Shown piece by piece: positions 4,543 to 34,152 of a DNA stretch of 43,859 nucleotides. The notes under the pieces are model-generated. The model saw nothing but the letters and a program-made list of their open reading frames with translations. It made no database searches and was not told the DNA's origin. The position numbers and the translations under genes are program-made. This stretch comes from a virus (lineage: Duplodnaviria; Heunggongvirae; Uroviricota; Caudoviricetes): positions 1 to 43,859 of the IMG/VR virus record IMGVR_UViG_2908567220_000006, one strand, 5' to 3'. How positions within the stretch are numbered: the stretch's first letter is position 1; each line of letters starts with the position of its first letter.

Positions 4543-5127
4543 TTATTGTTTGTTTTTTTCGTTCTGGTTGATGACAAATTCAATGTAACTTTCGATCTTT
4601 GCTTTCTCGGTTTCGGGTAACAATGCGTAGCGCGAGCGGTCATAGTTGATGGTCGCAGGGTCGTGCGGGTGAATCAGTAATTCATAGCCGTGACGCCCGA
4701 ATGCGGATGCAACATTCTCCAGGGTGGAAATGGAAACGCTGACCTCATTGTTTAACAGGCGGCTGATTGTCACCTGGGAGACGCCAGATGCGCGGTGAAG
4801 TTTTCCCTGTGTTGAAAGGTCGCGGCTTTCGCTCATCCAGCGTTCCAGGTTGTGAGCCGCCAGTTGACCAATGTCGCTTGGTCCGACAGGCTGAAAACCT
4901 TCCTGAGAAAGCGAGCGATCGATATCAAGCCAGTTACGGGGTTTATTGGCGGCAGCTTCGATTTTTCGCGCAACCTGGTCGCCGATAACCTTCTTGCCAA
5001 GAGCCCAGCGGTTTACCAGATTTGCCTGAGTTCCAAGTTTTTCTGCCATCCGCGTCTGAACACCATTGAATTCACGGTCGATCAAGTCGTTGAGATTTTG
5101 CCTGCGGACGTCCTGGATACTTTTCAT
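4543..5127 (-). CDS. CI-like phage repressor with two tandem XRE-type HTH domains
   Basis: 194 aa; two HTH-like segments (GVQTRMAEKLGTQANLVNRW and LHRASGVSQVTISRLLNNE); divergent from a Cro-like gene; no S24 peptidase motif is apparent. Confidence 0.7.
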   Translation of the reverse strand: MKSIQDVRRQNLNDLIDREFNGVQTRMAEKLGTQANLVNRWALGKKVIGDQVARKIEAAANKPRNWLDIDRSLSQEGFQPVGPSDIGQLAAHNLERWMSESRDLSTQGKLHRASGVSQVTISRLLNNEVSVSISTLENVASAFGRHGYELLIHPHDPATINYDRSRYALLPETEKAKIESYIEFVINQNEKNKQ

Positions 5128-30785: not shown

Positions 30786-31637
30786 ATGAAAAAAATAAAT
30801 TTGTTTTTTGGCATAGTGCTTTCAATAGTCTCTGTAAATCCTACAGCTGCCAGTTCATTGCAATGCAATAAGGATAACTTTGATGCATGCAAAACGTGCG
30901 AACAATTATCAAAGGCTATCGACTTAAAAGAACCTAATCGTGGCGATTACTATAGAGGGGCTTTATGGAATGGGCTTTACGCCTCTTATGTAATTAATTG
31001 CCCTGTGGTTGCAGAGAAGTTACTGAGCCATGGTGCTATACCATCATATGGCGGATATATGGGGTCTATGGGGGCGGTTCTGACAGGAAAATGGCCTCAT
31101 AACAATGAATCAATAAATCTTTCATGGGCAGATTTGCTTATAAAACATGGATTTGATGTTAATAGGCATACGGGGAATTATAAATCAGCTACTGAAGTAT
31201 GGGCTATAGATAAAAAACAGATTGAATATAAGTCAGTTTTTGACAAGTTAATTCAATCCAGCGAAGTAAAACCACTCGATCCTTCAAGAAATTTAGAATG
31301 GTGTGCGTCTGAAGGGTATCGCTCAGTTGTCGTTTATTCCCTTAACTCATGTATAGAAAATGCTATAAAACGTTTGGATGACGGTGTTTCTTCAGCGTCT
31401 GATATTTCATCAGCAGCCGTAAATTCCTGTACTAGCGATGTAGAAAATTTCAATAAGCATTTGGCATGCAAAGCAGCTGTTAAAGAAAACTCTGATAAAG
31501 AGAGAAGCAACGTTTACCAGTTATTAACCAGTGATAGTCAAATGAATAAAAATGTTATTGATATGCTGAAGGAAAGAAATATTGAAACGGTTCTTGAATT
31601 TAGAGCTGAAAATCGATCAGCGAAAACTGCACAGTGA
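30786..31637 (+). CDS. secreted Cys-rich protein with ankyrin-repeat-like segments (moron)
   Basis: N-terminal signal peptide MKKINLFFGIVLSIVSVNPTAA; AT-rich codon usage unlike flanking genes; segments ALWNGLYASYVINCPVVAEKLLSHGA and WADLLIKHGFDVN resemble ankyrin repeats. Confidence 0.55.
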   Translation: MKKINLFFGIVLSIVSVNPTAASSLQCNKDNFDACKTCEQLSKAIDLKEPNRGDYYRGALWNGLYASYVINCPVVAEKLLSHGAIPSYGGYMGSMGAVLTGKWPHNNESINLSWADLLIKHGFDVNRHTGNYKSATEVWAIDKKQIEYKSVFDKLIQSSEVKPLDPSRNLEWCASEGYRSVVVYSLNSCIENAIKRLDDGVSSASDISSAAVNSCTSDVENFNKHLACKAAVKENSDKERSNVYQLLTSDSQMNKNVIDMLKERNIETVLEFRAENRSAKTAQ

Positions 31638-31643
31638 TCAAAC

Positions 31644-31668
31644 AGGCCGCTTTCGCGGCCTTGTTTTT
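31644..31668. terminator. intrinsic terminator shared by convergent genes
   Basis: GGCCGC-TTTC-GCGGCC hairpin followed by TTGTTTTT on the plus strand. Confidence 0.6.
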
Positions 31669-31828
31669 AACGAATGCCACCGCCGCCCGGACGGGAATCC
31701 GCAGAACGCCCACCGCAGCGGGAGCCGTCAGCGGCAGTATCGCTGTCGTGCTGACAACGACCGGCAAAGGCCTGAGTTGAAGCTACCAGAGACAACAAAA
31801 CGAACAGTGCAGCAAATGCTTTTTTCAT
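31667..31828 (-). CDS. small secreted Gly-rich hypothetical protein
   Basis: Start at MKKAFAALFVLLSLVASTQAFA (signal-peptide-like); weak SD. Confidence 0.35.
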   Translation of the reverse strand: MKKAFAALFVLLSLVASTQAFAGRCQHDSDTAADGSRCGGRSADSRPGGGGIR

Positions 31829-31911: not shown

Positions 31912-32424
31912 CTATGCAGGCTTTTTGGATTTGTACGAATAATCCCACGGATAAACATTTCTACTAAGTGGAGCTGTATTCGTTCGTTCATGAAATAATT
32001 TTGTGAAATTCAATACGGAATCCATCCAAACTTTTGCGTTAGCTTTGGTGTGTGCGGGCGGGTCCCAATAAGCTAGTAAGGCTGCATCTCTTATTTCATT
32101 GACTGCATATATGAGATATGCGTTACTGGTTGGTTTTGGCCTGTAATTTCCTTGTTCATCAATCAATCCATATGACCACTCATCCCAACACTGTTCAGTA
32201 CATGAGTATGAATATGATGCATATTCACCAATATTGACATGAACCTTTCTGAGATGGAAGCCTAATACTTCCTCTGGTCTTTCAAAAAGAGTATCTTTTC
32301 CCAGATCAGGATGATGACCATGACGCCAGTGTTGTTTAAAAGCATCTTTTAGCGAAATCAGAAAGTCATCAGTTTTAAACTCACCAGTAGGTATAACCTT
32401 CCCGCTATACTCACTCAAAAACAT
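31912..32424 (-). CDS. hypothetical protein B (170 aa), downstream gene of a two-gene accessory operon
   Basis: Start overlaps the upstream gene by 14 nt; AT-rich; motif region HWRHGHHPDLGKDTLF...GFHLRKVHVNI; no confident family assignment. Confidence 0.55.
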   Translation of the reverse strand: MFLSEYSGKVIPTGEFKTDDFLISLKDAFKQHWRHGHHPDLGKDTLFERPEEVLGFHLRKVHVNIGEYASYSYSCTEQCWDEWSYGLIDEQGNYRPKPTSNAYLIYAVNEIRDAALLAYWDPPAHTKANAKVWMDSVLNFTKLFHERTNTAPLSRNVYPWDYSYKSKKPA

Positions 32425-32737
32425 CGAATTCCTCTTCCTTCATATGCGTTTCTAATGAGTTAAGCTGGCGGAAAGATATCTCTTTTGATTCTGCAGATGA
32501 GAGTTTTTTTATCCGCTTTATATTCTTTGTGATAGGAATAGACATTGTATGCACATCAGCGGATGCTCTTGGCTTTGTGCTGATAAAAATATGGCGCAAT
32601 GCCGCATTTTCACTATTGAACGAGCCAATAGCTGATTTACGTGCTACAACCTTACCAGTAAAAATACGACTCTTGCTACGCTTTGCATGAGTTCCGCTTC
32701 TTACCGGACCTCTCATCACGAATCCAAGTTTTGTCAT
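32411..32737 (-). CDS. hypothetical protein A (108 aa), upstream gene of a two-gene accessory operon
   Basis: GGAG SD 7 nt before the ATG; basic N-terminus; candidate promoter (-35 TTGCAG, -10 TACTAT) abutting the palindrome at 32780-32794. Confidence 0.5.
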   Translation of the reverse strand: MTKLGFVMRGPVRSGTHAKRSKSRIFTGKVVARKSAIGSFNSENAALRHIFISTKPRASADVHTMSIPITKNIKRIKKLSSAESKEISFRQLNSLETHMKEEEFDVFE

Positions 32738-32779
32738 CTTTAATCTCCGGTAAGTTACAGGTATAAAATAAAAACAGGT

Positions 32780-32794
32780 TTACCTTTAAGGTAA
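32780..32794. promoter_or_regulatory. palindrome copy at promoter of two-gene accessory operon
   Basis: Perfect TTACCtttaaGGTAA 43 bp upstream of the 108-aa gene start. Confidence 0.5.
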
Positions 32795-32867
32795 TAGTAC
32801 GCTATTCACCCCCGGTCTGCAATCTGTACAGAATTATTTAAAGGCACGTCCCTGTGCCGCCGACCCG

Positions 32868-33873: not shown

Positions 33874-34131
33874 TTATCTGGTTTGTTTTCGTAATTGTTC
33901 GGCACAATAGTCGAGATGTGTTTGCAGATCCTGCATAGACATCTGTGAGCTGGTGACGTAGTTAATCAGTGCAGTCAGTTCGGCAAGTGGGCCATCGACA
34001 TTAAATCCATCCTTATCGAGATCCCGGAGTAATTTCATCAAGTGCGATCCCTCCACCAGTGACCTGACGCCTCCCGGCGTGTGAATCCTTTCGGTAAATC
34101 CGTCTTCCAGTGGATAGTGATACTGCTGCAT
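33874..34131 (-). CDS. small antirepressor-domain protein, paralog of the Ant C-terminal domain; putative SOS-inducible antirepressor
   Basis: Start at MQQYHYPL with GGAG SD; SHLMKLLRDLDKDGFNVDGPLAELTALINYV...DLQTHLDY aligns by eye with the Bro-N antirepressor C-terminus; a LexA box overlaps its promoter. Confidence 0.55.
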   Translation of the reverse strand: MQQYHYPLEDGFTERIHTPGGVRSLVEGSHLMKLLRDLDKDGFNVDGPLAELTALINYVTSSQMSMQDLQTHLDYCAEQLRKQTR

Positions 34132-34152
34132 CTTATCTTCTCCATGCAATAA

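What the first reader, a model, noticed from the sequence alone, without database searches (positions are those of the whole stretch)
31912..32737. Translationally coupled two-gene operon of unknown function in the immI-like accessory island
Two AT-rich minus-strand genes (108 aa then 170 aa, 14-nt overlap) lie between the virion genes and the antirepressor, where P22-like phages carry superinfection-exclusion and immunity genes. Their promoter (-35 TTGCAG, -10 TACTAT) abuts a perfect TTACC-N5-GGTAA palindrome, so they may be under repressor control. I recognise neither protein. The pair has toxin-antitoxin-like or defense-module-like architecture, and the larger protein shows only a faint, unverified resemblance to YafO-type toxins (PD.GKD...HLRKVHV). 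This is my strongest candidate for an undescribed system.
Basis: partly seen in the sequence, partly recalled or inferred. Interest (0 to 1): 0.8.

Follow-up and report, generated by a model that had tools for sequence, protein, structure and literature searches.

The report
Prophage YafO-like toxin with unknown partner
Two overlapping genes in the swappable cargo slot of an epsilon15/phiV10-like E. coli prophage encode a distant relative of the YafO RNA-cutting toxin and a small, previously undescribed partner protein, driven by a promoter that carries the phage's own genome-wide operator; it is a plausible but untested toxin-antitoxin pair, and public databases already label the toxin half.

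Summary
Two minus-strand genes (108 aa, 32411-32737; 170 aa, 31912-32424) overlap by 14 nt, and a TTGCAG-17-TACTAT promoter touches a perfect TTACC-N5-GGTAA palindrome.

- **Toxin.** The 170-aa protein is not unknown. RefSeq already labels the identical sequence "YafO family toxin". Pfam YafO_toxin matches all 12 relatives just below threshold, a profile comparison with canonical YafO is collinear, and the predicted fold best matches HigB/RelE/YafQ toxins.
- **Partner.** The 108-aa protein is new: about 11 relatives among 1.84 billion representative proteins and no known domain. It has a very basic, fast-evolving body and a conserved acidic C-terminal helix. That helix is shared with the partner of a sister YafO-like pair.
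- **Pairing.** The pair is never split in 8 distinct loci or in 69 E. coli genomes.
- **Palindrome.** It is not a private operator. It occurs 15 times in the window against 0.87 expected, including around the repressor gene and before the Bro, terminase and tailspike genes. The cassette is therefore wired into the phage's own circuit.

Best reading: a type II toxin-antitoxin-like module with a new antitoxin family, in a variable cargo slot. Toxicity, neutralisation and any defence role are untested. Modest interest.

The parts
32411..32737 (-). Partner gene (108 aa), putative antitoxin. Residues 1-78 are basic (pI 12.0); the C-terminal helix, residues 79-108, is acidic (pI 4.5).
   Evidence: ORF. 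phrog_5933, function unknown. No Pfam, NCBIfam or PADLOC match. About 11 relatives in 1.84e9 representative proteins. AF2 gives a confident helix at 81-107 only. The C-terminal 35 residues are homologous to the partner of a sister YafO-like pair. pI values.
31912..32424 (-). Toxin-like gene (170 aa): a divergent YafO-family, RelE-superfamily protein.
32411..32440 (-). Coupling junction. The Shine-Dalgarno AAGGAAGAGGA for the toxin lies inside the partner ORF. The toxin ATG is at 32424-32422 and the partner stop ends at 32411 (14-nt overlap).
   Evidence: Sequence. The same 14-nt overlap is seen in all related loci.
32794..32822 (-). Putative sigma-70 promoter: -35 TTGCAG, 17-nt spacer, -10 TACTAT.
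   Evidence: Sequence. Below the scan threshold. Position and spacing are conserved in diverged relatives: TTGCAG-17-TAATAT, TTTACG-17-TAAGAT, TTGCAA-16-TAGAAT.
32780..32794 (.). Operator-like palindrome TTACC-N5-GGTAA, overlapping the last base of the -10.
   Evidence: Invariant in all relatives. It is one of 15 such sites in the window against 0.87 expected.
32843..32858 (-). Hairpin GGCAC-AGGGAC-GTGCC just after the Bro stop codon; a likely terminator that separates the Bro gene from the pair.
   Evidence: Conserved, with a compensatory change (GGCGC/GCGCC in relatives against GGCAC/GTGCC here).
32745..32748 (-). Shine-Dalgarno GGAG for the partner gene, within the invariant ACCGGAGAT.
31667..31828 (-). 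Small 53-aa signal-peptide ORF downstream. It is probably on the same transcript and forms the constant left border of the cargo slot.
   Evidence: No terminator-like site was listed on the minus strand between it and the toxin gene (inference). The same protein, WP_000708858.1, flanks every alternative cargo.
31644..31661 (.). GC-rich hairpin (AGGCCGC-TTTC-GCGGCCT); a bidirectional terminator that closes the unit.
   Evidence: Annotated as a terminator in phiV10.

Best explanation
This is a type II toxin-antitoxin-like cassette carried as swappable cargo by an epsilon15/phiV10-like prophage.

- **Gene 2 (170 aa).** It is a divergent YafO-family member of the RelE/ParE (BECR-fold) superfamily. 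By homology it should cut mRNA during translation and stop protein synthesis.
- **Gene 1 (108 aa).** It is a dedicated partner made by coupled translation. Its conserved acidic C-terminal helix most likely binds and neutralises the toxin. The basic, poorly ordered, fast-evolving remainder carries no DNA-binding domain.
- **Transcription.** Transcription starts at the cassette's own promoter. That promoter is overlapped not by a private operator but by the TTACC-N5-GGTAA operator the phage uses at almost all its transcription units. Expression is therefore set by a phage regulator, probably the HTH repressor encoded at 4543-5127, and not by antitoxin autoregulation. The cassette should be de-repressed on infection or induction, together with the neighbouring Bro antirepressor gene.

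Shown here: gene reality, strict pairing, family and fold assignment, the shared C-terminal module, and the operator regulon. Inferred: toxicity, neutralisation, which protein binds the operator, and the biological role. My split for the role is prophage retention or abortive defence about 0.3, a lytic-phase function about 0.25, and the remainder undecided.
For: **Toxin**
- PF13957 matches with near-full profile coverage, and 12 of 12 relatives match it and nothing else.
- hhalign against 13 canonical YafO sequences gives E=1.9e-4, aligning residues 18-146 with 16-132.
- The joint alignment shares invariant H62, Y106, P122 and H125 plus the G42/D44 motif.
- The toxin gene is under strong purifying selection.
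- YafO is a translation-dependent mRNA interferase with antitoxin-then-toxin gene order (PMC2814082; PMC11980606).

**Pairing**
- The partner-then-toxin order and 14-nt overlap are the same in 8 distinct loci, down to 22% partner identity.
- 69 of 69 E. coli genomes carry both genes intact and none carries one alone.

**Partner**
- Only the ends are constrained: pN/pS is 0.83 in the middle and 0.44 in the C-terminus.
- AF2 gives a confident helix at 81-107 only.
- The C-terminal 35 residues align end to end, without gaps, with the partner of a sister YafO-like pair whose toxin is 41% identical. hhalign gives E=6e-4; 1 of 50,000 shuffles reaches the score.

**Regulation**
- The palindrome is invariant upstream of the pair.
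- It also precedes two other YafO-like pairs in related phages.
- There are 15 sites in the window against 0.87 expected. They flank the HTH_3 repressor gene and precede the terminase, Bro and tailspike genes.
- A hairpin with a compensatory change isolates the unit from the Bro gene.
Against: - No experiment exists on this pair, and no paper was found.
- The Pfam score is below the gathering cut-off (20.1 against 25). hhalign probability is only 48%. Foldseek found nothing significant.
- The toxin model is of moderate confidence, and a 16-residue insert and the C-terminal tail are unmodelled.
- The partner is strongly basic (pI 10.6) and resembles no known antitoxin. Its similarity to YafN is not significant (E=0.057; shuffle p about 0.02-0.06).
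- A promoter shut by the prophage repressor fits poorly with a classical toxin-antitoxin pair, which needs a constant antitoxin supply in the lysogen.
- PADLOC finds nothing for this pair or for other cargos of the slot.
Confidence: 0.6

Rival explanations
1. Lytic-phase weapon, not an addiction or defence toxin-antitoxin pair. The cassette is silent in the lysogen because it is held by the phage repressor. It fires on infection or induction, when the RelE-fold RNase degrades host mRNA for the phage's benefit. The basic partner would be a timing inhibitor, or a targeting subunit for the ribosome or RNA, and not a classical antitoxin.
For: - The promoter-operator design is the same as at the Bro antirepressor, terminase and tailspike genes.
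- The partner body is extremely basic and disordered, like a nucleic-acid binder.
- The cassette has diverged about as much as the phage backbone: toxin 69-79% identical against 40-79% for the neighbouring injection protein. This suggests long residence, not selfish hopping.
- Canonical yafNO is likewise under an external DNA-damage repressor, within the SOS-regulated dinB operon (PMC9578287).
Against: - The slot is dispensable. phiV10 has nothing there and relatives carry unrelated cargo, so it is not a core lytic function.
- Which protein binds the operator, and whether it represses, was not tested.
- The gene order, the overlap and the conserved acidic C-terminal helix are classic antitoxin traits.
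Confidence: 0.2
2. A RelE-fold protein that has lost nuclease activity and serves another role, for example a regulatory or binding protein. The pair would then be an ordinary two-gene moron of unknown function.
For: - The sequence match to YafO is weak and below Pfam's cut-off.
- The family-specific WRxGHHP motif, a 16-residue insert and a 22-residue tail are absent from YafO.
- No defence or toxin model matches other than YafO.
Against: - The histidines and other residues invariant in canonical YafO are kept.
- Purifying selection is strong.
- There is an obligate upstream partner with coupled translation, and no toxin-only copies in 69 genomes.
Confidence: 0.12
3. A classical autoregulated toxin-antitoxin pair in which the TTACC-N5-GGTAA palindrome is the antitoxin's own operator.
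For: The palindrome overlaps the promoter, as toxin-antitoxin operators do, and it is invariant upstream of the pair.
Against: - The same palindrome occurs 15 times across the phage, including around the repressor gene and before the late genes.
- It is present in phages and loci that carry other cargo.
- The partner has no DNA-binding domain and no confident fold.
Confidence: 0.03

Closest known systems
YafN-YafO of E. coli K-12 (dinB-yafN-yafO-yafP operon; Pfam PF13957)
   Same: - The toxin is homologous over its whole YafO domain: collinear hhalign and shared H62, Y106, P122, H125.
- The gene order is antitoxin first.
- Both are under an external repressor: LexA for yafNO, and the phage operator here.
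   Different: - Toxin identity is only about 20%.
- The toxin here has an extra 16-residue insert and a 22-residue C-terminal tail.
- The partner is not a Phd/YefM-type protein like YafN; no significant similarity was found.
- Here the genes overlap by 14 nt, whereas yafN and yafO are separate.
- The location is a prophage cargo slot, not the chromosome.
Sister YafO-like pairs in the same phage lineage: Combat2C1 prophage and phage EC.W1-9 (139- or 171-aa partner plus 168-aa toxin); TL-2011b gp45/gp44 (59 aa plus 181 aa)
   Same: - The toxins are 41% and 32% identical to the one here.
- The order is partner first, with overlapping genes.
- The phage palindrome lies upstream.
- They occupy the accessory slots on either side of the Bro gene.
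- The Combat2C1-type partner shares the C-terminal 35-residue module.
   Different: - The partner bodies are unrelated.
- The TL-2011b partner shows no similarity at all.
- None of these pairs has been characterised.
HigB/RelE/YafQ ribosome-dependent mRNA endonucleases (RelE/ParE superfamily)
   Different: There is no sequence-level match to any solved chain. The protein here is larger, at 170 aa against about 90-120 aa. The catalytic residues could not be mapped.

Membership tests
YafO toxin family (Pfam PF13957) | Sequence match to the family model at or above the curated threshold | tested here: inconclusive
   The score is 20.1 bits against a cut-off of 25 (E=7e-4), but it covers profile positions 7-100 of 101. 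All 12 relatives match, best E=8e-6, and one 77%-identical relative carries a precomputed PF13957 hit. hhalign against canonical YafO gives E=1.9e-4, probability 48%. NCBI's pipeline assigns the name to the identical sequence.
YafO toxin family (Pfam PF13957) | RelE/BECR-type fold | tested here: met
YafO toxin family (Pfam PF13957) | Translation-dependent mRNA cleavage; growth arrest when expressed alone | not testable with these tools
   Known for K-12 YafO (PMC2814082). There are no data for this protein.
YafN-YafO system | Cognate antitoxin of the Phd/YefM (YafN) type encoded immediately upstream | tested here: not met
   An upstream gene is present but is not YafN-like. BLASTP finds nothing, there is no Pfam hit, and hhalign gives E=0.057 confined to the last 28 residues. 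Canonical YafO genes do have a PhdYeFM-type upstream gene.
Type II toxin-antitoxin module (general) | Two small adjacent co-directional genes, tightly or translationally coupled and always inherited together | tested here: met
   The 14-nt overlap is conserved in 8 loci. 69 of 69 E. coli genomes carry both genes.
Type II toxin-antitoxin module (general) | The antitoxin has a DNA-binding domain and autoregulates through an operator at its own promoter | tested here: not met
   No DNA-binding domain or confident fold was found. The operator at the promoter is a phage-wide site with 15 copies.
Type II toxin-antitoxin module (general) | The antitoxin binds and neutralises the toxin | not testable with these tools
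   The support is indirect: a conserved acidic C-terminal helix shared with the partner of a sister toxin.
Known anti-phage defence systems (PADLOC-DB 2.0.0) | Match to any defence-system protein model | tested here: not met
   There were no hits for either protein, nor for 9 proteins of alternative cargos or sister pairs.

The most novel reading that the evidence does not exclude
The cassette is a repressor-gated RNase module with two unusual features. First, control of a RelE-fold toxin has been handed from the antitoxin to the phage's master operator. It would then be silent in the lysogen and fire with the antirepressor on induction or infection. Second, the arginine/lysine-rich disordered partner does more than neutralise, for example by delivering the toxin to ribosomes or RNA. 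YafO-like toxins with interchangeable partner bodies but a shared C-terminal 'plug' would then be a recurrent, phage-deployed tool of the epsilon15/phiV10 lineage, not an addiction or defence module.
Probability: 0.15. Interest if true: 0.6.

Novelty: new member of a known kind. Interest (0 to 1): 0.35.

Why it matters
If the pair proves to be a working toxin-antitoxin module, three things follow.

- It adds a new antitoxin family, and a short C-terminal neutralising module shared across partners, to the small and poorly studied YafO branch of RelE-type toxins. No structure is available for that branch.
- It gives a clear example of a toxin module that a phage regulates through its own operator instead of by antitoxin autoregulation.
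- It marks a defined cargo slot, between a 53-aa ORF and the Bro gene. About 9% of complete E. coli genomes carry that slot's flanks. It could be mined for further phage-borne conflict genes.

None of this overturns current views, and the toxin half is already labelled in RefSeq.

Tried and rejected
- **Defence-system models.** PADLOC gave no hits for the pair, sister pairs or alternative cargos.
- **NCBIfam.** No meaningful hit.
- **Sequence search of PDB chains.** Both profiles found nothing.
- **Foldseek.** Searches against PDB and BFVD were not significant. The afdb50 library was unavailable.
- **Rfam.** Only sub-threshold noise over 31.4-33.1 kb, so there is no sign of an RNA antitoxin.
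- **Partner against YafN.** BLASTP found nothing. hhalign gave E=0.057 and shuffle tests gave p=0.06 and 0.02. I treat this as a lead only, not as homology.
- **Partner against the TL-2011b 59-aa partner.** No similarity.
- **Partner against the 108-aa ORF upstream of the DUF2335 cargo.** Unrelated.
- **Truncated partner variant P0023.** It lies at a contig end, so it is uninformative.
- **Private operator.** The idea that the palindrome belongs to the cassette alone was rejected after finding 15 copies.
- **Epsilon15 genome paper.** I have an unverified memory that this paper (Kropinski 2007) describes a similar operator consensus. It is not in the held library, so I do not rely on it.

Full report
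**1. Observation**

ORF listing confirms two minus-strand genes: 32411..32737 (108 aa) and 31912..32424 (170 aa). They overlap by 14 nt.

On the minus strand, the sequence upstream of the first ATG reads TTGCAG (32822-32817), a 17-nt spacer, TACTAT (32799-32794), then TTACCTTAAAGGTAA (32794-32780). GGAG lies 8 nt before the ATG. The Shine-Dalgarno for the second gene (AAGGAAGAGGA) lies inside the first gene. GC is 0.39-0.40 in the pair against 0.49-0.57 nearby.

The hexamers match the consensus at only 7 of 12 positions, and the scan did not list them. On its own the promoter is therefore weak evidence.

**2. Both genes are real and inseparable**

Relatives of the 108-aa protein were traced to contigs from Citrobacter, Serratia and other Enterobacteriaceae. 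In every one of eight distinct loci it sits directly upstream of a 170-aa gene with the same 14-nt overlap. This holds even for a member only 22% identical.

- Synonymous sites of the toxin gene are near saturation (pS 0.73-0.86) while pN is 0.13-0.26.
- In the partner, constraint is confined to the ends: pN/pS is 0.83 in the middle and 0.44 in the last 32 codons.
- In complete E. coli genomes, 69 of 5,426 carry the pair. All copies are at least 99% identical and full length, and none has one gene alone.

**3. The 170-aa protein**

- Pfam YafO_toxin (PF13957) matches at E=7e-4, 20.1 bits. This is below the 25-bit cut-off but spans profile positions 7-100 of 101.
- All 12 family members match that model and no other.
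- A profile comparison with 13 canonical YafO proteins is collinear (residues 18-146 against 16-132), with E=1.9e-4 and probability 48%.
- A joint alignment shows shared invariant H62, Y106, P122 and H125 and the G-[KR]-D motif. It also shows a 16-residue insert and a 22-residue tail specific to this subfamily.
- RefSeq already names the identical sequence 'type II toxin-antitoxin system YafO family toxin'.

From the literature, canonical YafO cleaves translated mRNA and belongs to the RelE superfamily (PMC2814082). PF13957 is a small family with antitoxin-then-toxin gene order (PMC11980606).

**4. The 108-aa protein**

- It has no Pfam, NCBIfam or PADLOC match. PHROGs files it under phrog_5933, function unknown.
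- An exhaustive profile search of 1.84 billion representative proteins found 14 hits. About 11 are credible, and all of those are 89-116 aa long.
- Residues 1-78 have pI 12.0 and residues 79-108 have pI 4.5.
- AlphaFold gives pTM 0.27. The N-terminus is disordered, the middle is a low-confidence beta-meander, and there is one confident helix at 81-107.
- It is unrelated to YafN by BLASTP. A C-terminal resemblance to YafN is not significant.

One comparison is significant. Its last 35 residues align end to end, without gaps, with the C-terminus of the partner of a sister YafO-like pair. That pair is found in the Combat2C1 prophage and in phage EC.W1-9, and its toxin is 41% identical to the one here. 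hhalign gives E=6e-4, and only 1 of 50,000 column shuffles reaches the score (z=6.0). The rest of the two proteins does not align.

Within the sister family the same pattern holds. The last 34 residues are identical, whereas overall identity across the aligned region is 45%. A conserved acidic C-terminal helix tracking the toxin, attached to a free-evolving body, is what a toxin-binding antitoxin segment would look like.

**5. Regulation**

Aligning the upstream regions of seven loci gives 54% mean column identity. Even so, ATTACC-N5-GGTAA and the ribosome-binding site are invariant. In four of the five distinct upstream types, a -35/-10 pair with 16-17 nt spacing sits so that the -10 abuts the palindrome.

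The hairpin after the Bro stop codon is conserved with a compensatory change. This argues that the pair is its own transcription unit.

The decisive result is that the palindrome is not private to the cassette. With at most one mismatch it occurs 15 times in the window, against 0.87 expected; none of 100 shuffles reached 15. By my reading, thirteen of the sites are intergenic. The groups are:

- two downstream of, and two upstream of, a 194-aa HTH_3 protein gene (4543-5127), in a layout like left and right operators;
- others before the terminase small-subunit, Bro and tailspike genes, usually just after a terminator and just after a -10-like hexamer.

The same site precedes the other YafO-like pairs in TL-2011b, Combat2C1 and EC.W1-9. 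In the related phage ZX5, overexpressing the repressor abolished lytic transcription (PMC9782041). I therefore infer that the cassette is gated by a phage regulator, probably that repressor. The antitoxin-autoregulation model is close to excluded.

**6. Setting**

The phage is epsilon15/phiV10-like, not P22-like. phiV10 has nothing in this slot.

Among the 502 E. coli genomes that carry the flanks, the space between a constant 53-aa ORF and the Bro/Ant gene holds varied cargo. Examples are this pair, a TL-2011b-type YafO-like pair, a DUF4760 protein, a DUF2335 protein with a 108-aa ORF, and other hypothetical proteins. None matches PADLOC.

No isolated phage in the phage collection carries the partner gene, and only three records (two phages, EC.W1-9 and TL-2011b) carry distant toxin relatives. 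The toxin has diverged about as much as the neighbouring injection protein.

**7. Verdict**

Most likely (0.6) this is a type II toxin-antitoxin-like module. It has a divergent YafO/RelE-fold RNase and a new partner family that neutralises through its C-terminal helix, and it is transcribed under the phage's global operator.

The main rival (0.2) keeps the same parts but reads them as a lytic-phase, repressor-gated tool and not as an addiction or defence module. A degenerate, non-toxic RelE-fold protein is possible (0.12).

Toxicity, neutralisation, the operator-binding protein and any phage-resistance phenotype remain untested, and I found no publication on this pair.

Novelty: a new member of a known kind, since the toxin family is known and already annotated while the partner family and the operator wiring are undescribed. 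Interest is modest.

Noticed in passing
window 4409, 4471, 5183, 5231, 5568, 7515, 7577, 12182, 12200, 15327, 32780, 33828, 34208 (intergenic); 35099, 35817 (inside the tailspike ORF): There is a phage-wide regulon of TTACC-N5-GGTAA palindromes: 15 sites against 0.87 expected. Most sit just after a terminator and abut a -10-like hexamer, punctuating nearly every transcription unit, including the late genes. The protein that binds them is not identified. Two sites lie inside the tailspike gene and are unexplained.
   Followed up: partly
window 4543-5127 (-): A 194-aa putative repressor with two HTH-like regions: a YdaS/Cro-like hit at residues 21-61 and HTH_3 at 106-147. It is flanked on both sides by pairs of the palindrome, which makes it the likely operator-binding protein.
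   Followed up: partly
window 30786-31637 (+): A 283-aa ORF with a clear signal peptide, low GC (0.35-0.42) and no Pfam match. It is a second, unrelated cargo gene next to the slot, present in only some relatives (WP_000723561.1).
   Followed up: no
window 31667-31828 (-): A 53-aa signal-peptide ORF with a Gly/Arg-rich tail (WP_000708858.1). It forms the constant left border of the cargo slot in all E. coli relatives examined and probably lies on the same transcript as the pair.
   Followed up: partly
window 33874-34149 (-): A 91-aa ORF that is a paralogue of the C-terminal domain of the neighbouring Bro protein (42% identity over 74 aa, E=1e-15). It sits in the second accessory slot, where relatives carry another YafO-like pair.
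   Followed up: partly
L001 5378-6389; L024 1092-2007; L002 3282-3981: Related phages carry two other YafO-like toxin subfamilies, each with a different overlapping upstream partner and each preceded by the phage palindrome. YafO-like pairs are therefore recurrent cargo on both sides of the Bro gene.
   Followed up: partly
window 32660-32737 (first 26 codons of the partner gene): Synonymous divergence is unusually low at the 5' end of the partner gene: pS 0.45 against 0.70 in mid-gene and 0.80 in the toxin gene. This hints at a nucleotide-level constraint, such as translation initiation or mRNA structure, or at recombination.
   Followed up: no
L021 923-1724: One alternative cargo of the slot is a DUF2335 protein with an upstream 108-aa ORF that overlaps it by 74 nt. 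That ORF is unrelated to the partner described here. It is another uncharacterised two-gene cassette.
   Followed up: no
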